From Candidatus Woesearchaeota archaeon (GTDB taxonomy: Archaea; Nanobdellota; Nanobdellia; Woesearchaeales; JACJVW01), in contig JACJVW010000002.1 in NCBI GenBank assembly GCA_020637435.1, positions 75,715 through 139,714 of the forward strand: a stretch of DNA of 64,000 nucleotides, read 5' to 3'. The notes under the pieces are model-generated. The model was not told where the DNA came from and made no database searches. It was given only the letters and a program-made list of their open reading frames with translations. Shown here one piece after another: positions 3,081 through 17,766 of the stretch (its first letter is position 1; the number at the start of each line of letters is the position of its first letter). The position numbers and the translations under genes were made by a program.

Positions 3081-3554
3081 CTAGGGTAGTCTCCTCAGCT
3101 GCTTTATCAGATAATTATCATCAGTCTCAGTCATCTTTTTCATCTCGGGATGCGGTACTCTTGGTTGTTCCTTCTCCTTTCCTATGAAGAATGTCTGGTC
3201 CTTTATCTTAGACATGACCTCTTCAAGCTCTGCTGGTTGTGCCTGGCTAGGCTCCCACTTAAACGGCAGTCCATCATTCTCCCTTCTGGGTACAACATGG
3301 AGTTCAACTTCACCGCTCAGTGAATTTGTGTTCTCCCCCTCATGGAGGATTATATTTGTACCACCCGTACCCCCGAGAGCTTCAAAAACAGCTGTTGCCG
3401 CGTAACTAGCGACATAAAAGAGATGCACCAGATCGTCTTCTGGAACACTTGCAAGACTGATAGGATGAGCGCTATGTTTTACGATGATATGCCCCTCCGC
3501 CATCGGAGTGACCGCAAGCTCTGCGATCGCCTTCTCATCTTCATAGATCTTCAT
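3081..3554 (-). CDS. HIT-fold protein with a degenerate histidine triad
   Basis: 157 aa with a HIT-like layout (AEGHIIVK..., GGTNIILHEG). The triad position reads E-V-E-L-H-V-V-P-R, so only the third His is kept. Confidence 0.65.
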   Translation of the reverse strand: MKIYEDEKAIAELAVTPMAEGHIIVKHSAHPISLASVPEDDLVHLFYVASYAATAVFEALGGTGGTNIILHEGENTNSLSGEVELHVVPRRENDGLPFKWEPSQAQPAELEEVMSKIKDQTFFIGKEKEQPRVPHPEMKKMTETDDNYLIKQLRRLP

Positions 3555-4652
3555 CTATTTCACCAAATCACTTATATCTCCGGATAGTATTTTTTCTTTT
3601 TCCCGCTCCTGATACGCTTTTACCAGAGCATCAACATCTGTGTCCCTAAAGATCTCCTGCAACTGAGGTAACTCAGCTATCTTAGACTTGAGTTGGTCAG
3701 CTTCATGAAGGACCAGATGCTTCAATTTTGGATTCTCATCAATAGTTTTGAACATCTCCTTAAATGAAGGGGTTAAGTTCAACGAATCAGGATGGTCGGG
3801 AGTTGATGGTGCGGCATTTTCAGCAACCTCCGGCATCTCACGTGACTCTCCTTCCTTAATGTCGGGTCTGTAGTGCCGTATGACATCGAAAACATCCACC
3901 TTCTCGAAGATCTGCTTAAGTTGGGGATGCTGAGTCATCTGCCTCGCGAACTCCAGCGGATCCTTATCGATCATCGTCTTCAGGTCAGGATGCTGCTCGA
4001 CAAGCGCGATGACATCCTGTATGTTCATCATAGGTTCTTGCGTTGCAGGAGGCTTAGGAGTCTGTTGCGAAAGTGGTGCAGAGTGTACTTCCGCAGAAGG
4101 TGACGGCGAAAGGTGATGCTCAGACGATTGTCGTGCTTGTTTCGGATGAGCCCCATGCCAGTTTACCGAATGACGCTTAAAGTGTTGAGCCATCATAAGC
4201 GGCAGATTCTGCCGAACAGTCTGCACAAGCGGCGTCTCTGTCAATTGACCCTTTCCCTTCACTTGAAAATTTGAGATACCATCTCCCTGCTCCCTCGGGA
4301 TGATATGGTACATGAAATGCGATGCCATCTGACCCGCCACATACCCGTTCGCGACAAATGTGGTTGTTCCGGTCATCAAGAGCCCTTTCCTAAGCGACGC
4401 GCACAGTTCCTTTGCCTTTCCAAACACATGTGAGAATGTCTGAGGCGGAAGAAGGGGCATGATAGGATAGTGCTCCTTTGGCATCACCAGGATATGACCC
4501 TTGCGTACAGGGTTAATATCAAGGATCGCAACGCACAGGTCATCCTCATAGACCTTCTTCGAGGGGATCTCCCCCTTGACGATCTTGCAGAAGATACACT
4601 GAGCTTTCTGCTCTTCTATCGCTTTGCGCTGTTCTTCACTCAACTCAGGCAT
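3555..4652 (-). CDS. HIT-fold protein (degenerate triad) with a long C-terminal helical-repeat extension
   Basis: 365 aa. The N-terminus CIFCKIV.GEIPS.KVYEDD..VAILDINP...GHILVMPKEH is classic HIT. The triad reads H-F-M-Y-H-I-I-P-R, with the middle His replaced by Met. The C-terminal ~150 aa contains two ~50-aa repeats. A TTTTTATA box starts 30 nt upstream of the ATG. Confidence 0.75.
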   Translation of the reverse strand: MPELSEEQRKAIEEQKAQCIFCKIVKGEIPSKKVYEDDLCVAILDINPVRKGHILVMPKEHYPIMPLLPPQTFSHVFGKAKELCASLRKGLLMTGTTTFVANGYVAGQMASHFMYHIIPREQGDGISNFQVKGKGQLTETPLVQTVRQNLPLMMAQHFKRHSVNWHGAHPKQARQSSEHHLSPSPSAEVHSAPLSQQTPKPPATQEPMMNIQDVIALVEQHPDLKTMIDKDPLEFARQMTQHPQLKQIFEKVDVFDVIRHYRPDIKEGESREMPEVAENAAPSTPDHPDSLNLTPSFKEMFKTIDENPKLKHLVLHEADQLKSKIAELPQLQEIFRDTDVDALVKAYQEREKEKILSGDISDLVK

Positions 4653-5912: not shown

Positions 5913-6719
5913 ATGAAGTTTATAAGAAGCATGTTCATGGCACTGATTGTCCTGGCTCTCATTTTCATCTACAACTTTTATGACCTGTTGATAGATGAGA
6001 TTCTCATCATCGATAAGCTGCTCATCGTCGCTATCGCCTACTGCGTCATCGACCTTGCCTTCCATATCATCAGACATACACTCATCGCCCTGTATAACAA
6101 GAATGAGGCACATCCTCATCCTAATATGACACTAGGTATCAAGAGCATCAGTTATTTCCTGCAGTATTTCATGTTCATTTTGTACCTGGTCAATACCCTC
6201 TTCATCAATATCAAAGACCTGCTTACCTCCATCAGTATAGTAGCTGTAGCCATCGTACTCATTTTCAGGGAACATATTGTCAATTTCATAAACGGCATCG
6301 TCCTTATGTTCACTACAGGCATCAGTATCGGTGACGTCATCCAGATAGGAGACCACAGAGGAAAAGTAAAGACTATCTCCTTCCAGTATGTCGAGCTTGC
6401 GGATGACACAGGAGAGACCGTATTTCTCCCCAACAACACCATCTTTACAAAGGAGTTTCGCAACTATTCCAAAGAGAGGACCAACACCATACAATTGACC
6501 GTCAGGCTCAAAAGAACGAAGAATGACCTTAAGAAGTTCAAAGTTAATCTTCGAAAACTCATCGATTCGGAATTCAAGGACCAGACTACAAGCTCCAAAG
6601 TCATAACCACCATGGTGGATAAAGACTTCATCGAGACCAAAGTCCTGGTCAACGTTAAGAAGTATAATATGACCCTTGAGGATCAGCTAAAAAACAGGAT
6701 AAAAGAGATAGCGATCTAA
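5913..6719 (+). CDS. Small-conductance mechanosensitive channel (MscS family)
   Basis: TM helices are followed by ISIGDVIQIGDHRGKVKTISFQYVELADDTGETVFLPNNTIF, the MscS beta-domain signature. I chose the ATG at 5913 because TTTATAAA (5883-5890) starts exactly 30 nt upstream. The track ORF starts at a TTG at 5862. Confidence 0.75.
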   Translation: MKFIRSMFMALIVLALIFIYNFYDLLIDEILIIDKLLIVAIAYCVIDLAFHIIRHTLIALYNKNEAHPHPNMTLGIKSISYFLQYFMFILYLVNTLFINIKDLLTSISIVAVAIVLIFREHIVNFINGIVLMFTTGISIGDVIQIGDHRGKVKTISFQYVELADDTGETVFLPNNTIFTKEFRNYSKERTNTIQLTVRLKRTKNDLKKFKVNLRKLIDSEFKDQTTSSKVITTMVDKDFIETKVLVNVKKYNMTLEDQLKNRIKEIAI

Positions 6720-7087
6720 TCCTTCTTCTCTTTCATCTTTTTAGTGATGTCGATGTTTGCTCCACAGTCAGTGCACTGGACTCGATAAGTAGGTACACCC
6801 TTAATCGTCTTCCTTTTGTACATGCCTGTAGTTTCGCCATCTTTACCGCAGGATGGACATGTGTACGCAACACACAATGTTAATGTTGGTTCATACTCCT
6901 CCTTATCGACAGAGTAACTGCACTCAGGACACACATATTCCTTGGCACGCATCTTCACCTTGCCCTTTTCAACAGGCTTACCCATGAGACCCTTTCCGCA
7001 TTTTGGGCACCTCTCTTTGAAGACCCATGCACGAGCATGTCCACCCTCGGCAAGATCCCTATTAGTAAAATAACAAACTTCATCCAT
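6716..7087 (-). CDS. Double zinc-ribbon protein (4 x CxxC)
   Basis: CPKC, CPEC, CPSC and CTDC are spaced ~22-25 aa apart, giving two ribbon units. I chose the ATG at 7087 (MDEVCYF...); the longer ORF begins at a TTG at 7105. Confidence 0.5.
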   Translation of the reverse strand: MDEVCYFTNRDLAEGGHARAWVFKERCPKCGKGLMGKPVEKGKVKMRAKEYVCPECSYSVDKEEYEPTLTLCVAYTCPSCGKDGETTGMYKRKTIKGVPTYRVQCTDCGANIDITKKMKEKKD

Positions 7088-7111
7088 ACTTTCTGGTTGA
7101 CGCAAAGCAAA

Positions 7112-7345
7112 TCACCTCGTCTTATTCACTGACTTCGTCTCATTGGTTTCTGGAAGCCATTCCTGATGTGTGACCAAGCCGGTCACTTCTTTAAGATTAC
7201 CGAACAACTGACCGACCCACTTAAAGAACTTTACGATAAAATTCTTTTGGTCATCCTTCTCTTCAAAATCAAAATCATATGCAGTCTTGATAGTGTATGC
7301 TCCAAACACAAGAAAAGCAACTACAATCCAGAATAGTTTACTCAT
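7112..7345 (-). CDS. Small single-pass membrane protein (hypothetical)
   Basis: 77 aa with an N-terminal TM helix (LFWIVVAFLVFGAYTI). It lies between the ParB-like gene and the Zn-ribbon gene on the same strand. Confidence 0.4.
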   Translation of the reverse strand: MSKLFWIVVAFLVFGAYTIKTAYDFDFEEKDDQKNFIVKFFKWVGQLFGNLKEVTGLVTHQEWLPETNETKSVNKTR

Positions 7346-7378
7346 AGTTTCACCTGGAGATGTAGAGACGCAGCCGGT

Positions 7379-9292
7379 TTATATGGATTGTGTATACCTA
7401 TATAAACGCTCTACACCCTTGGCGATAGCGCACAAGAGATGAAAATCCTCTTTCGTTCTCACCCGGTGCAAACGGTCATCCTGCAATACCTTCTCAAGAC
7501 CGGTAATATACTTTCGCAGTTCATACCCAAGCATGATATCTGAACCATCAGAAGTGAACAGTTCCGACTGATGTACCTTATCCCTTATCTTTCGTTCAAG
7601 CTGCTTGCTCGATATATCAAATATGACCGATTCCAGTGCAAGCAGATGACGTTGTGAAATGCACTCTACATCATGAAGCATCGTTGCAGATGCATACGAA
7701 ATCAGCCCCGTAGTATGCAGGTCCTTCGTCCATTGATCAAGATCCGCGTATCGCAATGCAGACCTGATTCCAGAAATCCCCACAGTACCCAATCTTTCAG
7801 AAAACTGCTCCAAAGACAATTCTGGGTTGCTCCTCTTCTCAATCAGATACTCGCCATGCAGACGCTCCGCCCGCTCGGCAAGATTGACTACTTCAAAGAG
7901 GTCTTCAGCGATCTGTATTCTCCTTGCCGTTCCGTCATCCATAGGACAACACAATACCTCAATATGAGTCAATCCCGCTTGCAGAGCTGAGCGGTATCTG
8001 GTCTCACCAACGACGATCTCATACTTGCCCTCTAAAGGCCGCACCATGATGGTCTGCATAATACCATACTTCTCAATTGAATCACTCATACTGGCAATAT
8101 TGGATCCATCAAATGTTTTCCTTGGTTGTTCGATGCACGGAACAATATCGCCTATAGGTATCCGCGGTAGATACATTACATTCACCAGGTCAACATGCTC
8201 ATAGTCCATACGCGATTGCAGTACAACATCTCCAGCACTGATTCTATCGACAAGATCACCTTTATTTCCGCTTGCAGCGCAAAATTTTCTGAATCGGGCA
8301 TCATTATTGTAGTCTGCCTTCAGTCCCGTCATGGCCGAATACAGATTCCTGATAGTCTCAAAAAAAGGAGTTCCGTAGCTGTCAAGATTACCCAGGATAG
8401 TGATATCAAAATCTGCCAATCGTTCAAGTTTACCCAGGAGTTTCTTCATGTCCCTAAGCATAGGTCTAAGAGGTGAAAACTCATCATAGTCTACACGCTG
8501 CTTAACCATGGTAAATCCAGGGTCATCAACGTACGTTTTCATAATATCCCTAACAGATTTTCTCGATAGCCCGTTCTCTCGAGCCTGAGCAATGATTGTC
8601 CGTTGCCTGTTCCTGTTTGGTTCATGGCCAAGTGCCGATGCAACTGAATAAGGTATCTTTCCAGCCTCAACTTGTTGCTTGATCTGTCCATGGAGATTTA
8701 CATAATCGAATGCATTTCGGATCATGTCAACTGACCTGCCCACATGGCGAGCGAAATCCGTCATGCTAAACCTTGTCTTCAATGCAGCATCAACATCATG
8801 ATAGGAATTGTTTGCTAAAGAGAGTATCTCATCTGCCTCAAGGTCATATTGGTCGCTAAGCATGAGCACATACATCTCCCACCAGCTCTGCGCATGTTCA
8901 TGTGCTGGGATAGCCCTCTTGGTAGAATTTTCGATAACCTGCATATGCACCCTATCTTCATCACTCACATTTGTATAGATTGCTGCACGGTAGTGAGGAA
9001 GCCCAAGTATGCCTGATACAAGTCTTCGTCTGCTTCCAGCGATAACCTGATACCGACCCTCATGCAACTGGATAACATCGCTTGGTTCTCCATCATACGC
9101 ATAAAGCAGATCATCAAGGCACAGATGCTCCAGGTCTGTTATCTCAACAATTGCAGGGGTGAGATTGATCTTGGAAGCCTGCATCGACTCTATCAGATCT
9201 ATCAGCTTAGACTTTCGCCAAGTTTTGCGTTCATTCCTATCAGGCAGTAAAACCCGGTCAGTCTCTATGTCAAAAACTCCTAGTCTCATCAA
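7379..9292 (-). CDS. Tandem-duplicated ParB/Srx-domain protein (two ParB-N + HTH modules)
   Basis: 637 aa. Module 1: YQVIAGSRRRLVSGILGL ... MQVIENSTKR ... FSMTDFARHVGRSVDMIRNAFDYVNL. Module 2: YEIVVGETRYRSALQAGL ... IQIAEDLFEVVNLAERAE ... LSLEQFSERLGTVGISGIRSALRYADL. Both resemble the ParB GERRxRA box followed by an HTH. Confidence 0.65.
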   Translation of the reverse strand: MMRLGVFDIETDRVLLPDRNERKTWRKSKLIDLIESMQASKINLTPAIVEITDLEHLCLDDLLYAYDGEPSDVIQLHEGRYQVIAGSRRRLVSGILGLPHYRAAIYTNVSDEDRVHMQVIENSTKRAIPAHEHAQSWWEMYVLMLSDQYDLEADEILSLANNSYHDVDAALKTRFSMTDFARHVGRSVDMIRNAFDYVNLHGQIKQQVEAGKIPYSVASALGHEPNRNRQRTIIAQARENGLSRKSVRDIMKTYVDDPGFTMVKQRVDYDEFSPLRPMLRDMKKLLGKLERLADFDITILGNLDSYGTPFFETIRNLYSAMTGLKADYNNDARFRKFCAASGNKGDLVDRISAGDVVLQSRMDYEHVDLVNVMYLPRIPIGDIVPCIEQPRKTFDGSNIASMSDSIEKYGIMQTIMVRPLEGKYEIVVGETRYRSALQAGLTHIEVLCCPMDDGTARRIQIAEDLFEVVNLAERAERLHGEYLIEKRSNPELSLEQFSERLGTVGISGIRSALRYADLDQWTKDLHTTGLISYASATMLHDVECISQRHLLALESVIFDISSKQLERKIRDKVHQSELFTSDGSDIMLGYELRKYITGLEKVLQDDRLHRVRTKEDFHLLCAIAKGVERLYRYTQSI

Positions 9293-9298
9293 TACACC

Positions 9299-10687
9299 TT
9301 ATTTTTTTACCCGGTCTACAAAACAAAGACCGCAGCTCTGCTCATCCTTTCCAACATGTGTTGAACAGAGACGGATATCTCCCTCTCTCTCATTGCGGTA
9401 TCTCAGGAAATCAGGATGCGTTTTTGAAGCGACGAAGAACTGGCCCTTCTTGCGCCAAGCGCTTCTGTTTCCAAAAAGGTCTTCATCAACACACTTCAGC
9501 TCATCCCATACCTGTCCGCTTATGGCAGGAGCAAGACTTTTCTTGTTACGTATCCTCATATCAAGGTATTGAAGACCTAGCTTGGGATGCGATAGTTGAA
9601 AGGCAACCGCATACTTTGCCTCATCCTGCATCTCAGACATCGGACGTGTGATGTCTGTCGCAACATAGATACCGCACTGCACATCAGCGTCGGCAAATCT
9701 CAGCAGTTCATCAAGTCTACGCCTCGTATCAAAACCATGCTTTAGGATGCCTTGTTCCAGAACTTCATAGCCGACGCTCGCGAGTAAAGAGACTCGGGCT
9801 TCACGCAGCAAATCTGCCGTCTCAACATCAAATTCTGGCATTTTCGTAGGCATCGTCACATCTATATCATACCTGCTGCGAAGCTCAATCACTGCGTCAA
9901 GCACAGCATGCAACTGGTTGGGAAGTCCATACTTCTCTCGAAATTCCCTCGGTATGAAAGTCTCTACATTCTGGCCGATACGAAGGAACACTCTTCCGTT
10001 GATCTCTCTTTGTGCTATCTTTTCCTCGATCAGATCAACAAGCTTGGAAGTCTCATACAGAGTATGGAGTGAAGGAAGAGCATTCCTGCCGTACGCATAG
10101 CAATAGTCGCATCTTCCTTCCGGGTCGTATGTTCCATCCGGCGTTATGGTCGCAGTACAGCCCATCATTCCATCGATTCCGATATCTATAGGACAGATAT
10201 CATGATAGATACCTTTGCCGCCTCTCACCATACCATGCGCACCCGAATTCACAACAACTATTTCCGGTTGTACCCGGACACGTTCGACGACTCGAGCTTC
10301 AAGGGTGGACTGACCTTCACCGCCTACATAAGCAGCGATATCACAAGTGATTGCCGTGATTACCCCATCAGTCAACTCCTCCAAAGCGACATGTGCAATC
10401 TTAGCAGAATACAATGCATCGTTCTGTTTGATCTGTTGCACAGGAGCGTTGCGAAGGCCATGCAGGTCAGCTGCGCCGCCTTGCAGAAGATAGGTACTCA
10501 CATACCCTGACCGTTTCAAAGAGTCATATGAAGTGAACGCAACAGGCTCATCGCAGACAAGTAATCCAGAAAACTGAGCGCCAGGCCTTCTGATTATCCT
10601 TGACTGAGTATAGAGGTTTAGAGCGTAGAATTGACTCCCTAGCGAGAAAAGCCTATGACTTATTCCATTTCTCGGTTTTGCCATCAT
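9299..10687 (-). CDS. Large radical-SAM-like protein with non-canonical Cys motifs (function unknown)
   Basis: The longest ORF is 478 aa (to 10735). I favour ATG 10687/10684 because a TATA box (TTTATATT on the minus strand, 10708-10715) lies 28-31 nt upstream. It carries GC-x15-C-D-Y-C-Y-A-Y-G and a C-terminal C-x10-C-x2-C. It lies 6 nt upstream of the ParB-like gene. Confidence 0.5.
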   Translation of the reverse strand: MMAKPRNGISHRLFSLGSQFYALNLYTQSRIIRRPGAQFSGLLVCDEPVAFTSYDSLKRSGYVSTYLLQGGAADLHGLRNAPVQQIKQNDALYSAKIAHVALEELTDGVITAITCDIAAYVGGEGQSTLEARVVERVRVQPEIVVVNSGAHGMVRGGKGIYHDICPIDIGIDGMMGCTATITPDGTYDPEGRCDYCYAYGRNALPSLHTLYETSKLVDLIEEKIAQREINGRVFLRIGQNVETFIPREFREKYGLPNQLHAVLDAVIELRSRYDIDVTMPTKMPEFDVETADLLREARVSLLASVGYEVLEQGILKHGFDTRRRLDELLRFADADVQCGIYVATDITRPMSEMQDEAKYAVAFQLSHPKLGLQYLDMRIRNKKSLAPAISGQVWDELKCVDEDLFGNRSAWRKKGQFFVASKTHPDFLRYRNEREGDIRLCSTHVGKDEQSCGLCFVDRVKK

Positions 10688-10746
10688 AGAATGGGACACC
10701 TGGGCCAAATATAAATCTATCAGACCGCCTGACATAAACTTTATTA

Positions 10747-11295
10747 ATGGCCCTCGTCTTTCAGCAAGCTACAATGGACATGCTACATGACATCAAACCT
10801 GGCGAAGTGAATAAGCTCAATGTTATCATCGAGGTACCCAAAGGTTCTCGCATCAAATATGAACTAGACAAAGAGACTGGTCTCATCAAAGTAGATAGAG
10901 TGCTCTACAGTCCTATGCACTATCCTGCAAACTACGGATTTGTTCCCCAGACTCTCTGGGAAGATGGAGATCCGCTCGACGTCCTGGTAATAGGCTATGA
11001 GGAGCTCATCCCAGGATGCCTCATCGAAGCTCGACCTGTCGCTATGCTTGAGATGAATGACGGTGGTGATGATGATGTCAAGATTCTCGCTGTCCCTACA
11101 GAGGATCCTCGATTTAAGGATATCGAGACGCTCAATGATGTGCATCCGCACCTTCTTGCTGAGATCAAGCATTTCTTCATGGTCTACAAACATCTTGAGA
11201 ACAAGAAAGTGGACGTAGGAGAATGGTGCGATGAGAAAGCGGCTGAAGCGGCCATTAAAAAATCCTTTGAACTCTACAAAGGAAAAAGGGCATAA
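10747..11295 (+). CDS. ppa: Inorganic pyrophosphatase, family I
   Basis: NVIIEVPKGSRIKYELDKETGLIKVDRVLYSPMHYPANYGFVPQT...DGDPLDVLV is the canonical family I PPase core. Confidence 0.9.
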   Translation: MALVFQQATMDMLHDIKPGEVNKLNVIIEVPKGSRIKYELDKETGLIKVDRVLYSPMHYPANYGFVPQTLWEDGDPLDVLVIGYEELIPGCLIEARPVAMLEMNDGGDDDVKILAVPTEDPRFKDIETLNDVHPHLLAEIKHFFMVYKHLENKKVDVGEWCDEKAAEAAIKKSFELYKGKRA

Positions 11296-13330: not shown

Positions 13331-15895
13331 ATGGTAAAACTTTCTCCCGCAATGGAGCAATATGTGCAGATCAAGGAAGAGAATCCTCACTGCCTAGTCA
13401 TGTTCCGTATGGGAGATTTCTATGAGATGTTCTATGAGGATGCCAAGACAGCGGCTCGTGAACTCGATATTACCCTGACCGCACGTGGCAAAGGAGAGAG
13501 CAGAGCGCCTCTCGCAGGCATACCATACCACGCCATCGAACAGTACATCAAAAAACTAGTGCAAAAAGGCTACAAAATTGCAATGGTCGAGCAGCTAGAG
13601 GACCCAAAAAAAGCGAAAGGTCTGGTCAAACGGGGCCTTGTCAGGATAATCACGCCAGGCACCCTCATCGAGGACTCGATGCTAAGCAAAGAGAACAACA
13701 ACTACCTGGCAGCCGTCTCCCCCCATGACAGAGAATTCGGCATAGCTTTCTGTGACATAAGCACAGGAGAATTTATGACAACAATCTGCGACACTGAGAT
13801 CAAACTTTTCGCTGAGCTTGAGAAATACAGGCCTAGCGAACTCATACTCCCGCTCTCTTTCGAAAAGAGCCTGATAGCTAACGAGATTAGCAAAAGAGAT
13901 TATCATGCATCATTTGAAGACGACCGCCACTTCTGGAAAGTCAAAGCAGAATCAACTATAAAAAAACACTTCGGAACTGAGCATCTTGATGGTTTTGGTC
14001 TGCAAGACAAAGAAGTCGCTATCGAATCATCCGGAGCGCTCATTTCCTATCTTTATCAGAATCACATAAATCAGAGCCCGAATATCAAGACTATCCAGAC
14101 GTACTCCGTCGAATCGTACATGATACTTGACTCACCTACCCAGAGGAATCTTGAATTGCTCCGCAATATCAGAGACAATTCATCCCGAGGCACACTCTTC
14201 GAAGTCATCAATAAGACCAGAACTTCTATGGGTTCGCGAAGGCTCAAGTCCTGGCTGCTGCGGCCGCTAAGGGATATCTCTGCCATTACGTCGCGTCATC
14301 AGGCGATAGAAGAGCTGCATGAAAATGCCCTTCTTGTCGAAGACCTTAAAGATGCGCTACGAGACATCGCTGACCTGGAAAGGATAGTAGGACGAGTTGC
14401 CTACGGAACAGTCAATCCGCGGGACACCATAAGTCTTGCCACATCGCTTGAGAAGATACCCCGTTTGCAAAAGCTCCTCGCTGAAACATCGGATTCTTTT
14501 GACTTCGTCAAACGACTAAACCCGTTGGAAAATCTGTATGGTCTCATAGTACGGGCTATAAAAGATGAACCAGCTATTACGATAAGGGAAGGAAATATCA
14601 TCAGGCACGGCTTTAACAAAGAGCTTGATGAGCTTATCGCTATGAGCACAAAGGGCAAAGAGTGGATGCTTAGTTTTGAAGAGAAGGAGAAAGACGCGAC
14701 GGGCATAAAAAATCTTAGAGTCAGATACAATAAAGTATTCGGATACTTCATCGAGATATCAAAAAGCAATCTGAAATTTGTTCCTGACCACTACATCCGT
14801 AAACAGACTCAGGTCAATTGCGAACGCTTCATAACAGAAGACCTCAAGGAGAAAGAATCACAACTGCTCGGCGCTCAGGACAAGATATATGGTCTTGAGT
14901 ACGAGTTATTCATGGAGATTGTGACAGAGATTGCTGCGCATAAAGCACCTATTCTCGAAGTAGCTGATGCGATAAGCGATCTTGATTGCCTCCTCGCCCT
15001 AACAAGCACAGCAGTAGAGAATCATTACACCAGACCTCGCATGTCACTTGGCCAGGAACTGGAAATTGTCGACGGTCGACACCCGGTCGTGGAACAGCTT
15101 GAACGCGGTTCTTTCATAGCGAATGATACGACTATCGGGAGTTCCGATATCGTGCACATTATCACAGGTCCGAACATGGCAGGTAAATCTACCTATCTCA
15201 GGCAGGTAGCGCTTATCACACTGCTTGCGCAGATGGGCTCGTTCGTACCTGCAAAGAGCGCCACCATATCAATTGTCGATAGGATATTCTCTAGAGTAGG
15301 AGCGTATGACGATCTATCGATGGGACAATCCACATTTATGGTCGAGATGAGTGAAACTGCTAATATCCTCAACAACGCAACAGCCAAGTCCCTCATCATC
15401 ATGGATGAAGTTGGCAGGGGTACCTCCACATACGATGGTCTTAGTCTTGCGTGGGCGATTATAGAATATATCCTGCAACATATTAAAGGGAAGACGCTTT
15501 TCGCTACCCACTATCATCATCTCAATACACTTGAGCGCCAGTATGAGGGAGTTAAAAACTTCAACGTGCTCGTGGAGGAACACGATGAGGACGTTGTCTT
15601 CCTACATAAGATAATCGAAGGAGGCACTGACAGAAGCTATGGTATCCATGTAGCGATGATCGCTGGCATGCCAAAACAGGTCATCGACCGTTCAAGACTA
15701 ATCATGGGAAGAATCGAGGGTCAGGAACAGCTGACAAGGACTATCACAGATGGATCAAACGACTTAACTGATAAGAATATAACTGCTGAAGATCACATAA
15801 CTCCTGAAGCGAATATAACTACTGCGTCGAACAGCATAAAGACATCCTCACGAAGAGATACTAAGAAAAAACAGAAGAGCCTTTTCGAATACTAA
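13331..15895 (+). CDS. mutS: DNA mismatch repair protein MutS (bacterial MutS1 type)
   Basis: N-terminus PAMEQYVQIKEENPHCLVMFRMGDFYEMFYEDA, Walker A GPNMAGKSTYLRQ, and STFMVEM, DEVGRGTSTYDG. A TTTTAAAC box starts 30 nt upstream of the ATG. Confidence 0.95.
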   Translation: MVKLSPAMEQYVQIKEENPHCLVMFRMGDFYEMFYEDAKTAARELDITLTARGKGESRAPLAGIPYHAIEQYIKKLVQKGYKIAMVEQLEDPKKAKGLVKRGLVRIITPGTLIEDSMLSKENNNYLAAVSPHDREFGIAFCDISTGEFMTTICDTEIKLFAELEKYRPSELILPLSFEKSLIANEISKRDYHASFEDDRHFWKVKAESTIKKHFGTEHLDGFGLQDKEVAIESSGALISYLYQNHINQSPNIKTIQTYSVESYMILDSPTQRNLELLRNIRDNSSRGTLFEVINKTRTSMGSRRLKSWLLRPLRDISAITSRHQAIEELHENALLVEDLKDALRDIADLERIVGRVAYGTVNPRDTISLATSLEKIPRLQKLLAETSDSFDFVKRLNPLENLYGLIVRAIKDEPAITIREGNIIRHGFNKELDELIAMSTKGKEWMLSFEEKEKDATGIKNLRVRYNKVFGYFIEISKSNLKFVPDHYIRKQTQVNCERFITEDLKEKESQLLGAQDKIYGLEYELFMEIVTEIAAHKAPILEVADAISDLDCLLALTSTAVENHYTRPRMSLGQELEIVDGRHPVVEQLERGSFIANDTTIGSSDIVHIITGPNMAGKSTYLRQVALITLLAQMGSFVPAKSATISIVDRIFSRVGAYDDLSMGQSTFMVEMSETANILNNATAKSLIIMDEVGRGTSTYDGLSLAWAIIEYILQHIKGKTLFATHYHHLNTLERQYEGVKNFNVLVEEHDEDVVFLHKIIEGGTDRSYGIHVAMIAGMPKQVIDRSRLIMGRIEGQEQLTRTITDGSNDLTDKNITAEDHITPEANITTASNSIKTSSRRDTKKKQKSLFEY

Positions 15896-15897
15896 CA

Positions 15898-17766
15898 ATG
15901 GGAAAAATCCGAGAACTCGAACCTGATCTTATCAACAAGATTGCAGCTGGCGAAGTAGTGGAAAGGCCGGCATCCATCATCAAAGAGACAATAGAGAACG
16001 CTATTGACGCCGGAGCTGATACCATCACTATCGAAGTGCATCAGGCTGGTAAAGAACTTATCCGCATTATCGACAACGGGCAGGGGATGGACGAAGAAGA
16101 CGCAATGCTTTCCATCAAAAGCCATGCGACAAGTAAGATACATGATATTGACGACCTTTTTTCCGTTCGTACTCTCGGATTTAGGGGAGAAGCTCTCGCC
16201 AGTATCGCAGCCGTTTCTCATATGGTGCTTACCACAAAGACTGAAGATATGGAGAGCGGTATAGAAGTGGAGATTGAAGCTGGTCGCATCATAGGAACTA
16301 AACGCGTGCCTGCTCGAACAGGTACAAGTATCATCATCACAGACCTCTTCTTCAACACACCTGCACGAAAGAAGCACCTCAAGTCCGACCAGACAGAACT
16401 AGGTCACATCAGCGACATCGTAACCCGCTATGCACTTAGTGATACTAATCTATCCATACACCTCATCTGCGATGGTAAGGACAGCATCAACTGTCCGGGC
16501 TCTCCAAATCTGCTCAACAAAATTGTCTACCTCTACGGAAAAGACACTGCTCGCCAGATGATACCTATTGAACACACAACAGACTTCCTTACTCTTAAAG
16601 GCCTCACAGGTAAACCATATCTGACTAAGTCAGACAGAAGCTACCAATCATTGTTCGTCAACGGCAGGTATGTAAAGAATCAGACCATCAGCAATGCCAT
16701 CTATGACGCGTACCATACACTACTATTCCTTGACAGAAACCCTGTCTGCGTACTCTTCATAGAGATCGATTTCTCAAAAACAGATGTGAATGTGCATCCG
16801 CAAAAAGAGATTATCCGCATCGAGAATGAAGATAGGCTCTACAAAGATGTCTTCGAAGCGATGCGTGCCTGTTTTCGGGCAAGCAGCCTCATACCAGATG
16901 TTGAGCTCGGGGACATCCCGACAAACGCGAAAGCGACAAAGATCTACTCAATACCGAAACTTGAGCAGACCACGCTCCTTAAAGAGACGGCGACATCTTT
17001 TTCCGACCATCATACCGCTGATGTCGATCCTGAGGTTACCGACGCCCGGGCAAGATTAGCCAACCATATGGACGTACCTCTCATGCCACCTACTCAAGTT
17101 AAGCATGCATGGCATGCGACTCCCTCAGTGGAGATCGATGAGAAGAGCGAATACACCCAACCAACAAATAGGGTGCAAGATACACTTGGTCTTGGAACCC
17201 ACCGGGTACTTGGCCAGATGAACAAGCTCTACATCATTATCGAAAGCGAGAAAGGGCTTACCATCATCGACCAGCACGCTGCGGAGGAAAGAGTCTTCTT
17301 CGAAAAGTTCAAGTGCCAGCTTGAAGCAAAGAAAGTACCCAAACAATCCCTTCTCGTCCCCAAACTCATTGAACTCAGTTCGCAGGACGCATCATTCATC
17401 CGTGAGAACAACACACTGCTGCAGCAGATGGGCTATGAACTAGAGGAGATGGGACCCACCACATTTCGCATCGTCGAGATCCCAAAACTGATCGGCAGAT
17501 TCTACGACAACCTCATCCATGATGTCATAGCCGATATGCGAAAGGACCGCATCACCGCACTTGATGAATCCAATCACGACAAACTCGCGAGCATGGCATG
17601 CCGAAGAGCAATCAAAGCCGGTGATGAACTCACGCTTCCCCAGATGCAAGATCTCATCAAAGAGCTCAACAGATGCGAGAAGCCCTTCGGTTGCCCCCAC
17701 GGACGGCCAACGGTCATCAACATACCTTTCGCGGAGCTCGAGCGTAAATTCAAACGAGTGCATTAA
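15898..17766 (+). CDS. mutL: DNA mismatch repair endonuclease MutL
   Basis: GHKL ATPase N-terminus (IAAGEVVERPASIIKE..ENAIDAG). The endonuclease motif is DQHAAEERVFFE and the C-terminus carries CPHGRP. It starts 2 nt after the mutS stop. Confidence 0.95.
   Translation: MGKIRELEPDLINKIAAGEVVERPASIIKETIENAIDAGADTITIEVHQAGKELIRIIDNGQGMDEEDAMLSIKSHATSKIHDIDDLFSVRTLGFRGEALASIAAVSHMVLTTKTEDMESGIEVEIEAGRIIGTKRVPARTGTSIIITDLFFNTPARKKHLKSDQTELGHISDIVTRYALSDTNLSIHLICDGKDSINCPGSPNLLNKIVYLYGKDTARQMIPIEHTTDFLTLKGLTGKPYLTKSDRSYQSLFVNGRYVKNQTISNAIYDAYHTLLFLDRNPVCVLFIEIDFSKTDVNVHPQKEIIRIENEDRLYKDVFEAMRACFRASSLIPDVELGDIPTNAKATKIYSIPKLEQTTLLKETATSFSDHHTADVDPEVTDARARLANHMDVPLMPPTQVKHAWHATPSVEIDEKSEYTQPTNRVQDTLGLGTHRVLGQMNKLYIIIESEKGLTIIDQHAAEERVFFEKFKCQLEAKKVPKQSLLVPKLIELSSQDASFIRENNTLLQQMGYELEEMGPTTFRIVEIPKLIGRFYDNLIHDVIADMRKDRITALDESNHDKLASMACRRAIKAGDELTLPQMQDLIKELNRCEKPFGCPHGRPTVINIPFAELERKFKRVH

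What the first reader, a model, noticed from the sequence alone, without database searches (positions are those of the whole stretch)
6716..10735. Operon pairing an internally duplicated double-ParB/Srx protein with a large radical-SAM-like protein of unusual Cys spacing
Four minus-strand genes are packed with gaps of 6, 33 and roughly 6-24 nt (the last depending on the Zn-ribbon start codon): a ~462-478-aa protein, a 637-aa protein, a 77-aa TM protein and a 4xCxxC double zinc-ribbon protein.

The 637-aa protein contains two complete ParB-N plus HTH modules. These are YQVIAGSRRRLVSGILGL...FSMTDFARHVGRSVDMIRNAFDYVNL and YEIVVGETRYRSALQAGL...LSLEQFSERLGTVGISGIRSALRYADL. It is therefore a covalent pseudo-dimer. 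Each module keeps only part of the GERRxR arginine patch (SRRR versus ETRYR). No ParA/Walker partner is nearby, so a plain segregation role is not obvious.

The upstream protein has a TIM-barrel-like central region. Its motif is G-C-x15-C-D-Y-C-Y-A-Y-G (478-aa ORF numbering C193, C209, C212), plus a C-terminal C-x10-C-x2-C. The C-x-Y-C-Y-A string resembles what I recall from SplB/COG1533 and DUF5131 (phage Gp37/Gp68) radical-SAM-like proteins. A long first spacer has a precedent in QueE (CX14CX2C). The ~190-aa N-terminal domain is unrecognised.

ParB/Srx-fold proteins recur as partners in DNA-modification and conflict systems, to my knowledge DndB in phosphorothioation and DpdB in 7-deazaguanine DNA modification. 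A DNA- or nucleotide-modifying module is therefore a reasonable but unproven hypothesis. I do not recognise this combination as a described system.
Basis: partly seen in the sequence, partly recalled or inferred. Interest (0 to 1): 0.7.

Follow-up and report, generated by a model that had tools for sequence, protein, structure and literature searches.

The report
Archaeal photoproduct-lyase-like enzyme with double ParB
A Woesearchaeota chromosome encodes a previously undescribed iron-sulfur "radical SAM" enzyme, distantly related to the bacterial enzyme that repairs UV-damaged spore DNA, next to an internally duplicated DNA-clamp protein (ParB); related genomes add DNA glycosylases, which points to an uncharacterised DNA repair or DNA modification pathway in these tiny archaea.

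Summary
Four tightly packed minus-strand genes sit at 6716-10735, and the 637-aa protein has two full ParB N-domain plus HTH modules.

The 478-aa ORF is more likely 461-462 aa. It is the founder of an unannotated family of about 280 clusters at 50% identity. All named members are Woesearchaeota.

Seven cysteines are essentially invariant in 132 members: C181, C193, C209, C212, C457, C468 and C471.

Pfam, NCBIfam and PDB sequence searches find no curated family. Two other tests do place it:
- A high-confidence AlphaFold model (pLDDT 91.5) hits spore photoproduct lyase (SPL) first, then other radical SAM enzymes.
- A profile-profile alignment to SPL gives E about 2e-6, and shuffled controls fail. 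It matches C193/C209/C212 to the CX3CX2C triad across a 12-residue insert. It also matches the family's invariant residues to SPL's SAM contacts.

One family member has the canonical CX3CX2C spacing.

Across 15 distinct loci, the same double-ParB family follows the gene in 5 and an HhH-GPD glycosylase (Ogg or AGOG-like) in 6. The TM and zinc-ribbon genes are not conserved partners. Nothing suggests a defence island, virus, plasmid or ParA/parS partition system.

The best reading is a DNA-directed radical SAM enzyme assisted by a pseudo-dimeric ParB. Repair is somewhat more likely than modification. This is a new variant of a known kind.

The parts
9299..10687 (-). Gene for the SPL-related radical-SAM-like enzyme. 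It is 462 aa from ATG 10687; the longest ORF runs to 10735 (478 aa). Residue numbers in this report use the 478-aa ORF.
   Evidence: ORF. It is 100% identical to NCBI H6504_04335 (461 aa, Ca. Woesearchaeota). The family has 279 representatives. The AF2 model has pLDDT 91.5. Foldseek's top hit is SPL 4fhc. hhalign to SPL gives E 1.9e-6.
10708..10715 (-). TATA-box-like TTTATATT about 24 nt upstream of ATG 10687. It lies in the 59-nt divergent intergenic region shared with the pyrophosphatase gene, which starts at 10747 on the + strand.
   Evidence: Read from the sequence. Homologue N-termini and the low pLDDT of residues 1-24 support the shorter start. Promoter function is inferred.
10226..10687 (-). 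N-terminal domain of about 150 aa (residues ~18-170). It is beta-rich with one long helix and matches no known family. Y42 and D132 are nearly invariant.
   Evidence: No Pfam or NCBIfam hit. Secondary structure. Conservation.
10094..10195 (-). Cluster-binding segment C181-x11-C193-x15-C209-x2-C212-Y213-A214. It is a radical SAM CX3CX2C motif with a 12-residue insert in the first spacer, plus an invariant upstream Cys.
   Evidence: hhalign equates C193/C209/C212 with SPL C90/C94/C97 and Y211/Y213 with Y96/Y98. The spacer varies across the family (3, 14, 15, 23, 27-31, 37, 105) while the cysteines stay invariant. P0145 has the canonical CLGGCDYCYA.
9542..10189 (-). Radical SAM partial (beta/alpha)6 barrel core, residues 183-398. 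Invariant R252, G254, E258, T297-K298, S320, E327, G329, R340 and R394 lie here.
   Evidence: hhalign matches K298=K174, S320=S195, A359=A234 and R394=R273 of SPL. These are SPL's SAM contacts according to PMC3467042. Several members give sub-threshold Pfam Radical_SAM hits.
9323..9367 (-). C-terminal Cys motif C457-x10-C468-x2-C471, a candidate second metal or Fe-S site. H460 is not conserved across the family.
   Evidence: C457 is present in 131 of 132 members, C468 in 129 and C471 in 128. The exceptions are truncated sequences. The metal-binding role is inferred.
7379..9292 (-). Gene for the internally duplicated ParB (637 aa).
   Evidence: Orthologues with the same two-module layout follow the radical-SAM-like gene in L002, L004, L014 and L015.
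8528..9292 (-). ParB module 1 (residues ~1-255): N-domain with AGSRRR and IENSTKR, followed by an HTH.
   Evidence: Pfam ParB_N second stretch and HTH_ParB at 174-253. NCBIfam RepB matches 77-126. G86, R89, E112, N122 and K125 are invariant in 5 orthologues.
7568..8185 (-). ParB module 2 (residues ~370-575): N-domain with QPRKTF, GETRYR and EDLFE, followed by an HTH. This is the more canonical, Spo0J/Noc-like module.
   Evidence: It aligns to 1vz0, 6sdk and 7ng0 over N-domain plus HTH. G429, R432, E463, D464, L465, E467 and E473-R474-A475 are invariant in 5 orthologues.
7112..7345 (-). 77-aa protein with one N-terminal hydrophobic helix. It lies in the operon but is not a conserved partner.
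   Evidence: ORF. No family hit. No tblastn match in any related locus.
6716..7105 (-). 129-aa protein with four CxxC pairs (two zinc ribbons). It is probably an unrelated conserved small protein.
   Evidence: Many zinc-ribbon Pfam hits, with DUF7560 just above its cut-off. A homologue at 48% identity lies about 1 kb upstream of a distant family member in L017. It is absent from the ParB-bearing loci.

Best explanation
The 462-aa protein is a radical SAM enzyme of the spore-photoproduct-lyase (SplB/COG1533) lineage that acts on DNA.

Proposed mechanism:
- C193, C209 and C212 hold the [4Fe-4S] cluster. This is a CX3CX2C motif interrupted by a variable loop.
- SAM sits on the SPL-equivalent residues Y211, Y213, K298, S320 and R394.
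- A 5'-deoxyadenosyl radical abstracts hydrogen from a flipped-out damaged or target base.
- C181 serves either as an H-atom donor, like the clostridial SPL Cys77, or as the fourth ligand, together with C457/C468/C471, of a second metal or Fe-S site.

The co-transcribed double ParB is a single-chain pseudo-dimer. Its two N-domains could close on each other around DNA. It would then bring the enzyme to duplex DNA or activate it there, as a phage ParB does for a thymine dioxygenase.

In sister genomes an Ogg-type or AGOG-like HhH-GPD glycosylase lies in the same cluster. I therefore favour lesion repair: direct reversal of a cross-linked or reduced pyrimidine-type lesion, backed by base excision. 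Programmed base modification is the second choice.

What is shown and what is inferred:
- Shown: fold, homology to SPL, conserved residues and gene linkage.
- Inferred: DNA as the substrate, the roles of C181 and the C-terminal cysteines, ParB clamp closure, and the partnership itself.

The 0.5 confidence applies to the full statement. Sub-claims: radical SAM enzyme of the SPL lineage about 0.85; acts on DNA about 0.7; repair rather than modification about 0.6 given DNA.
For: Family and conservation:
- 279 relatives have E<=1e-3, and 226 of them E<=1e-10.
- Seven cysteines plus K174, R252, K298, S320, R340 and R394 are invariant or nearly so in 132 members.

Fold:
- The AF2 model has pLDDT 91.5 and pTM 0.91.
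- Foldseek against PDB puts SPL 4fhc first (E 4.6e-6, probability 1.0, TM 0.51 on the target). anSME, LipA, SuiB, MiaB and Elp3 follow (the same order with the shallow model).
- Viral-library hits are all radical SAM proteins.

Homology to SPL:
- hhalign of the family profile against SPL gives probability 89.6%, E 1.9e-6 over 179 columns.
- Reversed and shuffled SPL controls score 10-21 against 50 for the real sequence, with probability <=1.1%.
- Aligned pairs are C193=C90, C209=C94, C212=C97, Y211=Y96, Y213=Y98, K298=K174, S320=S195, A359=A234 and R394=R273.
- Apart from the three cluster cysteines, these are the residues that PMC3467042 reports as SAM contacts or as surrounding the cluster (Y96).
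- P0145 has the canonical CX3CX2C, while other members have spacers of 14-105.
- Several members give sub-threshold Pfam Radical_SAM hits that start at the CxxC.
- IMG names three members 'DNA repair photolyase'.

Link to DNA:
- The same double-ParB family lies directly downstream or one gene away in the window, L002, L004, L014 and L015.
- Ogg-HhH glycosylases are present in L001, L014 and L009. An AGOG-like family of about 310 aa is present in L002, L015 and L043. L043 carries a distant member at about 22% identity, so this linkage is old.

Precedents:
- SplB-like radical SAM genes are linked to uracil-DNA glycosylases and DUF4130 (PMC3765255).
- COG1533 is SOS-regulated, and a COG1573-COG4277 operon exists (PMC8565304).
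- A ParB homologue is required by a phage T-dioxygenase only on dsDNA (PMC13229309).

Operon: a 6-nt gap separates the two genes, and a TATA-like box lies upstream.
Against: - No biochemical data exist.
- No curated family threshold is met. Pfam Radical_SAM reaches 14.5 bits against a cut-off of 29.5, and NCBIfam gives nothing.
- PDB sequence-profile searches find nothing.
- The fit to SPL is only moderate (TM 0.38 on the query, 0.51 on the target; rmsd about 10 A). Other radical SAM enzymes follow closely.
- SPL's H-donor Cys140 aligns with V257 (Thr in most members). SPL's DNA-flipping hairpin R304/Y305 is not confidently aligned.
- ParB is adjacent in only 5 of 15 distinct loci and a glycosylase in 6. 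Seven loci show neither, although many of those contigs are short.
- The window has no glycosylase of either type.
- I could not read model coordinates, so the geometry of the cysteines is untested.
- The ParB arginine patch and ENLQR box are degenerate in both modules, so nucleotide-driven clamping is uncertain.
Confidence: 0.5

Rival explanations
1. This is a programmed DNA base-modification system. The radical SAM enzyme writes a modification on DNA, such as C-H methylation, methylthiolation or another adduct; a second Fe-S site would fit sulfur or electron supply. The double ParB targets or spreads the enzyme along the chromosome. The HhH-GPD glycosylase in sister loci erases or polices the mark.
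For: - ParB-fold partners of DNA-modifying enzymes are known. A ParB homologue activates a phage thymine dioxygenase (PMC13229309). DndB and DpdB are further examples, from general knowledge.
- Aravind and co-workers suggested that SplB-like radical SAM/UDG/DUF4130 clusters 'might modify thymines' (PMC3765255).
- There are seven invariant cysteines, more than one cluster needs.
- Thymidylate synthase or thymidylate kinase genes lie near the family gene in four loci.
Against: - No methyltransferase, sulfur-donor or restriction-type partner is consistently linked.
- There are no PADLOC hits.
- The flanks are housekeeping genes and base composition is uniform.
- The family is absent from viral contigs, phages and plasmids, where hypermodification systems are common.
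- The closest characterised relative is a repair enzyme.
Confidence: 0.25
2. The genes are neighbours without a shared function. The double ParB organises or segregates the small archaeal chromosome on its own. The radical SAM enzyme modifies RNA, a protein or a metabolite. The adjacency reflects compact genomes and conserved synteny.
For: - Seven of 15 distinct loci have neither ParB nor a glycosylase next to the family gene. Neighbours there are translation and tRNA genes.
- ParB module 2 looks like an ordinary Spo0J/Noc-type ParB.
- The other two genes of the operon are clearly not conserved partners.
Against: - The same unusual two-module ParB follows the gene in five independently sampled loci, at only 19-34% ParB identity. 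The gene order varies (RS-ParB, RS-glycosylase-ParB, RS-ParB-glycosylase), which argues for selection rather than inherited synteny.
- Two different HhH-GPD glycosylase families are recruited to the same position.
- There is no ParA or parS in the window.
- The nearest homologue of the enzyme acts on DNA.
Confidence: 0.17
3. This is a mobile-element or anti-virus defence module. ParB/Srx plus a radical enzyme act as a conflict system, and a plasmid or virus brought them in.
For: ParB/Srx domains recur in conflict systems and mobile elements (general knowledge). Generic ParB hits occur in many viral contigs.
Against: - There are no PADLOC hits.
- The viral ParB hits have a single module only, and no viral locus encodes the radical SAM family.
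- tblastn finds nothing in 72,556 plasmids or 50,697 phages.
- The flanks are pyrophosphatase, MutS/MutL, HIT and MscS here, and ribosomal, RNA polymerase and tRNA synthetase genes elsewhere.
- GC content is even, 0.44-0.47.
- No flanking repeats are present.
Confidence: 0.05

Closest known systems
Spore photoproduct lyase (SplB/SPL; PDB 4FHC; TIGR00620)
   Same: - It has the same partial (beta/alpha)6 radical SAM barrel and is the top Foldseek hit.
- Profile-profile homology covers about 180-200 residues.
- It shares the C..CxYCY cluster motif with both tyrosines.
- It has aligned equivalents of the SAM-contacting K174, S195, A234 and R273 and of the conserved R135/E206/G208/R215 positions.
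- Both have an extra N-terminal domain.
   Different: - A 12-residue insert (14-105 residues across the family) sits between the first two cluster cysteines.
- There is no Cys at the Bacillus H-donor position C140, where the family has V or T.
- The N-terminal domain is different and larger.
- SPL's C-terminal hairpin region is replaced by a CX8-10CX2C motif.
- Four additional invariant cysteines are present.
- It is archaeal rather than from Firmicutes spores.
- It fails TIGR00620 and every other NCBIfam model.
SplB-like COG1533 genes and radical SAM/UDG/DUF4130 cassettes (COG4277-COG1573, TIGR03916-type) of non-sporulating bacteria
   Same: A radical SAM enzyme of the SPL kind is genetically linked to a DNA glycosylase and has a suspected repair or thymine-modifying role. 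Its function is still unproven (PMC3765255; PMC8565304).
   Different: - The glycosylase belongs to a different superfamily: HhH-GPD Ogg or AGOG-like here, UDG there.
- There is no DUF4130 and no LexA/SOS context.
- A ParB partner is new.
- The window protein matches no NCBIfam model for those families.
ParB-dependent phage thymine dioxygenases (5mYOX176/ParB176)
   Same: A ParB homologue is encoded next to a DNA-base-directed enzyme and is needed for its action on double-stranded DNA (PMC13229309). This is the best functional analogy for the ParB here.
   Different: - The enzyme there is an Fe(II)/2-oxoglutarate dioxygenase, not a radical SAM enzyme.
- The phage ParB has one nucleotide-binding domain and a dimerisation domain, and lacks an obvious DNA-binding domain.
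- The ParB here has two N-domains, each with an HTH, in one chain. It is chromosomal and archaeal.
Chromosomal ParB/Spo0J/Noc CTP-dependent DNA clamps
   Same: Module 2 aligns over N-domain plus HTH to Spo0J and Noc structures and passes the TIGR00180 domain cut-off. QPRK and G-E-x-R-x-R are kept.
   Different: - Two modules are fused in one polypeptide.
- GERRxR and ENLQR are degenerate: GETRYR/EDLFE in module 2 and GSRRR/ENSTKR in module 1.
- No recognisable C-terminal dimerisation domain was detected.
- No ParA and no parS consensus occur in the window.
DndB (phosphorothioation) and DpdB (7-deazaguanine DNA modification) ParB-like partners; QueE with CX14CX2C
   Same: From general knowledge, these are ParB-fold proteins that accompany DNA-modification enzymes. 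QueE sets a precedent for a long first spacer in the radical SAM motif.
   Different: No Dnd or Dpd components are in the window or the related loci. There are no PADLOC hits. The enzyme is not QueE-like in size, domains or Foldseek ranking.

Membership tests
Radical SAM superfamily | Three-cysteine motif (CX3CX2C or a variant) that binds the [4Fe-4S] cluster on the loop after beta1 | tested here: met
   C193, C209 and C212 are invariant or nearly so in 132 members. They align with SPL C90/C94/C97. One member has the canonical CX3CX2C; the others have inserts of 14-105 residues.
Radical SAM superfamily | Partial or full (beta/alpha) TIM-barrel core | tested here: met
   AF2 model with pLDDT 91.5. 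The leading Foldseek PDB and viral hits are radical SAM enzymes; a few other TIM-barrel proteins appear lower in the PDB list.
Radical SAM superfamily | Conserved SAM-binding residues on beta2-beta6 | tested here: met
   Invariant K298, S320 and R394 and the aromatic Y211/Y213 align with SPL's SAM contacts K174, S195, R273 and Y96/Y98. This rests on alignment only, not on coordinates.
Radical SAM superfamily | Score above the Pfam PF04055 gathering threshold | tested here: not met
   The window protein scores 14.5 bits against 29.5. The best family member sampled scores 25 bits.
Radical SAM superfamily | Reductive cleavage of SAM to the 5'-deoxyadenosyl radical | not testable with these tools
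   This needs anaerobic reconstitution and a 5'-dA assay.
Spore photoproduct lyase (TIGR00620) | Match to the curated SPL model | tested here: not met
   The NCBIfam scan returned no family at E<=1. phmmer and hmmsearch against PDB do not reach SPL.
Spore photoproduct lyase (TIGR00620) | H-atom donor cysteine (Cys140/141 in Bacillus type, Cys77 in Clostridium type) | tested here: inconclusive
   The C140 position aligns with V257, which is Thr in 87 of 132 members. Invariant C181 falls two positions from G. thermodenitrificans S76 (clostridial C77), but in a low-confidence extension of the alignment.
Spore photoproduct lyase (TIGR00620) | Tyr after the last cluster Cys (Tyr98/99) in the radical relay | tested here: met
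   Y213 is present in 131 of 132 members and aligns with Y98.
Spore photoproduct lyase (TIGR00620) | C-terminal beta-hairpin with Arg304/Tyr305 that flips the lesion | tested here: inconclusive
   The confident alignment ends at SPL residue 277. The C-terminus here carries a Cys motif instead.
ParB/Spo0J partition proteins (TIGR00180, PF02195 + PF17762) | ParB N-terminal (Srx-like) domain followed by an HTH DNA-binding domain | tested here: met
   Met twice in one chain.
ParB/Spo0J partition proteins (TIGR00180, PF02195 + PF17762) | Intact CTP-binding boxes (QPR, GERRxR, ENLQR) | tested here: inconclusive
   Module 2 has QPRK, GETRYR and EDLFE. Module 1 has NERK, GSRRR and ENSTKR. Only G..R is invariant in both modules across 5 orthologues. 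Binding itself is not testable here.
ParB/Spo0J partition proteins (TIGR00180, PF02195 + PF17762) | Cognate ParA ATPase and parS centromere | tested here: not met
   No deviant Walker A motif occurs in any ORF of the window. No ParA is among the flanking genes. The bacterial parS consensus is at chance level. The rest of the genome was not available.
DUF5131 (phage Gp37/Gp68) family | Match to PF07505 | tested here: not met
   There is no hit at E<=1 in the Pfam scan of the window protein, and none in 10 further members at E<=0.1.
Known anti-phage defence systems (PADLOC-DB) | Any component model matched | tested here: not met
   All four proteins give 0 families.

The most novel reading that the evidence does not exclude
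DPANN archaea possess a radical-SAM-based DNA repair or editing pathway. An SPL-descended enzyme with an interrupted cluster motif and a second Cys4 site is loaded onto duplex DNA by a single-chain, self-closing ParB clamp and hands over to HhH-GPD glycosylases. This would be the first radical SAM DNA repair route outside bacterial spores and the first coupling of a ParB clamp to radical chemistry.
Probability: 0.35. Interest if true: 0.8.

Novelty: new variant of a known kind. Interest (0 to 1): 0.62.

Why it matters
Radical SAM chemistry on DNA is so far established for one enzyme, spore photoproduct lyase. The wider SplB-like families remain functionally obscure.

This finding offers a well-defined, testable archaeal family with three useful properties:
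- It has clear SPL-type SAM-binding residues.
- Its cluster motif is unusual and tolerates insertions.
- It has three recurrent DNA-handling partners.

If the ParB partnership is real, the emerging idea that ParB-fold proteins act as DNA-access factors for base-directed enzymes would extend from phages to cellular chromosomes and to radical enzymes. It would also give a natural single-chain ParB for studying N-domain engagement.

The finding also bears on how genome-reduced, anaerobic DPANN archaea maintain their DNA. In practical terms, it gives annotation pipelines three new families, which are currently labelled 'hypothetical protein', generic 'ParB N-terminal domain-containing protein' or, at best, 'DNA repair photolyase'.

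Tried and rejected
Searches that found nothing:
- Single-sequence and profile HMM searches of PDB sequences for the enzyme found nothing usable. Only structure comparison and hhalign reached SPL.
- NCBIfam and PADLOC gave no hits for the enzyme. The DUF5131 idea had no support.
- PHROGs added only generic ParB labels.
- There was no match in viral contigs, phage records or plasmid records for the enzyme. Viral ParB hits were single-module only.
- Searches for a parS consensus, flanking repeats and bacterial-type promoters or terminators gave nothing above chance. A regex for ParA Walker A motifs found none.
- A search of the window for either glycosylase family was negative.

Searches that were limited or uninformative:
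- Two homologue searches with the double ParB (single sequence and 5-sequence profile) returned only the protein itself. Ordinary ParBs saturated the word-based candidate list. The reverse question, whether double ParB is always next to the enzyme, therefore remains open.
- The genome and metagenome scans used narrow peptide patterns and returned only 3 loci each. Genome-wide co-occurrence could not be measured.

Limits of the analysis:
- I could not get model coordinates, so Cys-Cys distances were not measured.
- I considered that C181 rather than C193 might be the first cluster ligand. I rejected this as the first choice because hhalign pairs G192-C193 with SPL G89-C90, and because P0145 has the canonical CX3CX2C at C193/C209/C212.

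Full report
**1. What is in the sequence**

Four ORFs lie head to tail on the minus strand:

| Coordinates | Length | Start codon |
|---|---|---|
| 9299-10735 | 478 aa | ATG |
| 7379-9292 | 637 aa | TTG, then ATG one codon later |
| 7112-7345 | 77 aa | ATG |
| 6716-7105 | 129 aa | TTG, with an ATG at 7087 |

The window comes from a Candidatus Woesearchaeota chromosome. Both large proteins are 100% identical to NCBI entries from a 171-kb contig.

The flanking genes are housekeeping genes. They include a divergent inorganic pyrophosphatase, a transglutaminase-like protein, MutS and MutL, two HIT proteins and an MscS channel. GC content is even at 0.44-0.47.

The first gene more likely starts at ATG 10687 or 10684:
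- Homologues begin there, and NCBI aa.
- Residues 1-24 of the long ORF have pLDDT below 50.
- A TTTATATT box at 10708-10715 sits about 24 nt upstream of ATG 10687, inside the long ORF.

**2. The double ParB**

- Pfam finds ParB_N twice (E 4.9e-25) and HTH_ParB at residues 174-253.
- NCBIfam parB_part passes its cut-off, 103 bits against 58.
- Residues 377-570 align across N-domain and HTH to the Spo0J, ParB and Noc structures.
- The two halves align with each other at 23% identity over 163 residues, E 0.001.

So this is a covalent two-module ParB.

The nucleotide-binding boxes are degenerate in complementary ways. Module 1 has NERK, GSRRR and ENSTKR. Module 2 has QPRK, GETRYR and EDLFE. In five orthologues only G..R is invariant in both modules.

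There is no ParA-type Walker motif anywhere in the window. The bacterial parS consensus does not occur above chance.

**3. The large upstream protein is a new family**

A word-indexed search found only six relatives. An exhaustive profile search found 279 representatives at E<=1e-3, of which 226 have E<=1e-10. Nearly all are 450-570 aa long. Every named member is Woesearchaeota, and IMG labels three of them 'DNA repair photolyase'.

In 132 near-full-length members the following are invariant or nearly so:
- the cysteines C181, C193, C209, C212, C457, C468 and C471;
- K174, R252, G254, E/D258, T297-K298, S320, E327, G329, R340 and R394.

H460 is not conserved.

Cysteine spacing across the family:
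- C181-C193 is fixed at 11 residues.
- CxxC is fixed.
- C193-C209 varies: 15 residues in 64 sequences, 27-31 in about 50, and also 14, 23, 37 and 105.
- One member, P0145, reads CLGGCDYCYA, which is the canonical CX3CX2C.

**4. What the family is**

Curated libraries do not recognise it:
- Pfam Radical_SAM is sub-threshold, at E 0.041 here and 2.4e-5 to 2.6e-3 in three other members. The match always begins at the CxxC.
- NCBIfam and PADLOC give nothing.
- PDB sequence searches fail even with a 132-sequence profile.

Structure prediction does place it. With the deep alignment, AF2 gave a confident model with pLDDT 91.5 and pTM 0.91. It shows an N-terminal beta-rich domain, a (beta/alpha) barrel from about residue 185 to 395, and a small C-terminal unit.

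Foldseek against PDB ranks spore photoproduct lyase first (4fhc, E 4.6e-6, probability 1.0, TM 0.51 on the target). anSME, LipA, SuiB, MiaB and Elp3 follow. An earlier shallow model also put SPL first, followed by other radical SAM enzymes. Viral-library hits are all radical SAM proteins.

I then tested the relationship to SPL at residue level. I recovered the 4FHC sequence from a PDB alignment and ran a profile-profile comparison. The result was probability 89.6%, E 1.9e-6, over 179 columns, with window residues 183-398 against SPL residues 81-277. Reversed and shuffled SPL controls scored 10-21 against 50 for the real sequence, with probability <=1.1%.

The alignment pairs these residues:

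| This family | SPL | Note |
|---|---|---|
| G192-C193 | G89-C90 | a 12-residue gap follows in SPL |
| C209 | C94 | |
| Y211 | Y96 | |
| C212 | C97 | |
| Y213 | Y98 | |
| R252 | R135 | |
| T297-K298 | T173-K174 | |
| S320 | S195 | |
| E327 | E206 | |
| G329 | G208 | |
| R340 | R215 | |
| A359 | A234 | |
| R394 | R273 | |

The SPL structure paper reports that K174 and S195 hold the SAM carboxylate. It also reports that Y96, Y98, A234 and R273 contact the adenine and ribose (PMC3467042). The family's most conserved residues therefore fall on SPL's cofactor site.

I conclude with high confidence that this is a radical SAM enzyme of the SPL lineage. Its CX3CX2C motif carries a variable insertion.

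Differences from SPL:
- The Bacillus-type H-donor C140 aligns with V257, which is Thr in most members.
- The DNA-flipping hairpin R304/Y305 is not confidently aligned.
- The N-terminal domain differs.
- There is a C-terminal CX8-10CX2C motif.

In a low-confidence extension of the alignment, invariant C181 lies two positions from the site where clostridial SPLs carry their H-donor Cys77. C181 could therefore be an H-atom donor. Alternatively it could be the fourth ligand of a site formed with C457/C468/C471. I could not read model coordinates to decide between these.

**5. Gene neighbourhoods**

I obtained 15 distinct loci with DNA. I scanned them with HMMs for each partner family.

- The same two-module ParB family lies directly downstream of the enzyme gene, or one gene away, in five loci: the window, L002, L004, L014 and L015. 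ParB identity to the window protein is 19-34%.
- An HhH-GPD glycosylase is present in six loci. Ogg-HhH occurs in L001, L014 and L009.
- A family of about 310 aa occurs directly downstream in L002, L015 and L043. It has GIGxGK and IDRH motifs and a C-terminal CX7-8CX3CX3C motif. Its only database matches are weak ones to archaeal AGOG (Pfam E 0.0037; PDB 1xqo E 0.21).
- L043 carries a distant enzyme at about 22% identity, so the link to a glycosylase is old.
- Gene order varies between loci: enzyme-ParB, enzyme-glycosylase-ParB and enzyme-ParB-glycosylase.
- Eight of the 15 loci have at least one partner. The other seven, many on short contigs, have neither.
- The window itself has no glycosylase of either type.
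- The TM gene has no counterpart elsewhere. The zinc-ribbon protein has one homologue at 48% identity, about 1 kb from a distant enzyme gene in L017. It is absent from the ParB-bearing loci.
- Thymidylate synthase or kinase genes lie near the enzyme gene in four loci. I did not test whether this exceeds chance.

**6. Not a mobile or defence element**

- There are no PADLOC hits.
- No relatives of the enzyme occur in IMG/VR contigs, phage records or plasmid records.
- Viral ParB matches have a single module only and have no enzyme gene nearby.
- Neighbours in other loci are RNA polymerase, ribosomal protein, tRNA synthetase, histone and FttA genes.

**7. Mechanism proposed**

Shown:
- a radical SAM fold, homology to SPL, and a conserved cluster triad and SAM pocket;
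- recurrent linkage to a double ParB and to two glycosylase families;
- an operon arrangement.

Inferred:
- The enzyme acts on a flipped-out DNA base by 5'-deoxyadenosyl radical chemistry.
- The double ParB acts as a single-chain pseudo-dimer. It binds DNA through its two HTH domains, possibly closes its two N-domains on each other, and recruits or activates the enzyme on duplex DNA. A phage ParB does this for a thymine dioxygenase on dsDNA (PMC13229309).
- Glycosylases in sister genomes deal with related or residual lesions.

Bacterial precedents exist for SplB-like radical SAM genes linked to DNA glycosylases, and their function is still unknown (PMC3765255; PMC8565304).

I favour repair over programmed modification for three reasons: the context is chromosomal and housekeeping, the closest relative is a repair enzyme, and the partners are repair glycosylases. 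The extra cysteines and the ParB precedents keep modification a serious rival.

Candidate lesions are speculative. They include methylene-bridged or reduced pyrimidine lesions and other damage typical of anoxic conditions.

**8. Comparison and novelty**

The protein is not a member of TIGR00620, of any NCBIfam radical SAM family, or of DUF5131. It works like SPL at the cofactor site but lacks SPL's Cys140 and hairpin, and it adds two domains and four cysteines.

The ParB passes the generic ParB domain model but has no ParA or parS. It is also duplicated, which I did not find in any viral ParB that was retrieved. I found no paper describing this combination.

I rate it a new variant of a known kind. 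It is an undescribed archaeal branch of SPL-like radical SAM enzymes with a new partner set.

**9. Limits**

- There is no biochemistry.
- No coordinates were available.
- No multimer prediction was run.
- Genome-level co-occurrence was not measured, because the collection scans were limited by narrow patterns and the ParB homologue searches were saturated by ordinary ParBs.

Noticed in passing
window 13331-17766 (+): Bacterial-type MutS (854 aa) and MutL (622 aa; Pfam MutL_C, DNA_mis_repair, HATPase_c_3) lie 2.6 kb from the enzyme gene on the opposite strand, in a Woesearchaeota genome. This is a second DNA-repair unit in the neighbourhood. The adjacency may be coincidental.
   Followed up: partly
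window 10685-10746: The annotated 478-aa ORF probably over-extends. A TATA-like TTTATATT (10708-10715) and the homologue N-termini point to ATG 10687/10684. That leaves a 59-nt divergent promoter region shared with the pyrophosphatase gene (start 10747) and suggests a nearly leaderless transcript.
   Followed up: partly
L002 1576-2538, L015 2128-3042, L043 8547-9515: An unannotated protein family of about 310 aa lies directly downstream of the radical SAM gene. It has an HhH-like GIGxGK, an IDRH motif and a C-terminal CX7-8CX3CX3C motif. Its only matches are weak ones to archaeal 8-oxoguanine glycosylase AGOG. It is possibly a new Fe-S-bearing HhH-GPD glycosylase family.
   Followed up: partly
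L003 943-2319; L007 2457-3392; L016 725-2244; P0047 locus: Thymidylate synthase and/or thymidylate kinase genes lie within 0-6 kb of the radical SAM family gene in four loci. In L003 the thymidylate synthase is a 458-aa fusion that also hits a pterin-binding domain. This is suggestive for a thymine-related substrate, but it was not tested against chance.
   Followed up: no
L017 5658-6047 (-): A homologue of the window's 129-aa double zinc-ribbon protein, at 48% identity, lies about 1 kb upstream of a distant member of the radical SAM family, next to an MJ1341_C-domain gene. The small protein seems widely conserved in these archaea. Its function is unknown.
   Followed up: partly
window 3081-4652 (-): Two adjacent HIT-domain genes are present. 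The second (365 aa) carries a long C-terminal extension of about 240 aa with no Pfam match beyond the HIT and DcpS_C hits.
   Followed up: no
P0047 locus and P0020 locus: An archaeal Hel308/Ski2-type helicase (Helicase_C plus Helicase_dom4_arc) sits divergently next to the family gene in the P0047 locus and about 6 kb away in the P0020 locus. In the P0020 locus a 291-aa gene with no Pfam hit overlaps the 3' end of the family gene. No DNA was available to test whether that gene is AGOG-like.
   Followed up: no
P0148, P0153: Two family members carry an insertion of about 105 residues between the first and second cluster cysteines. That is far longer than any spacer I know of in a radical SAM motif. 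It was not examined further.
   Followed up: no
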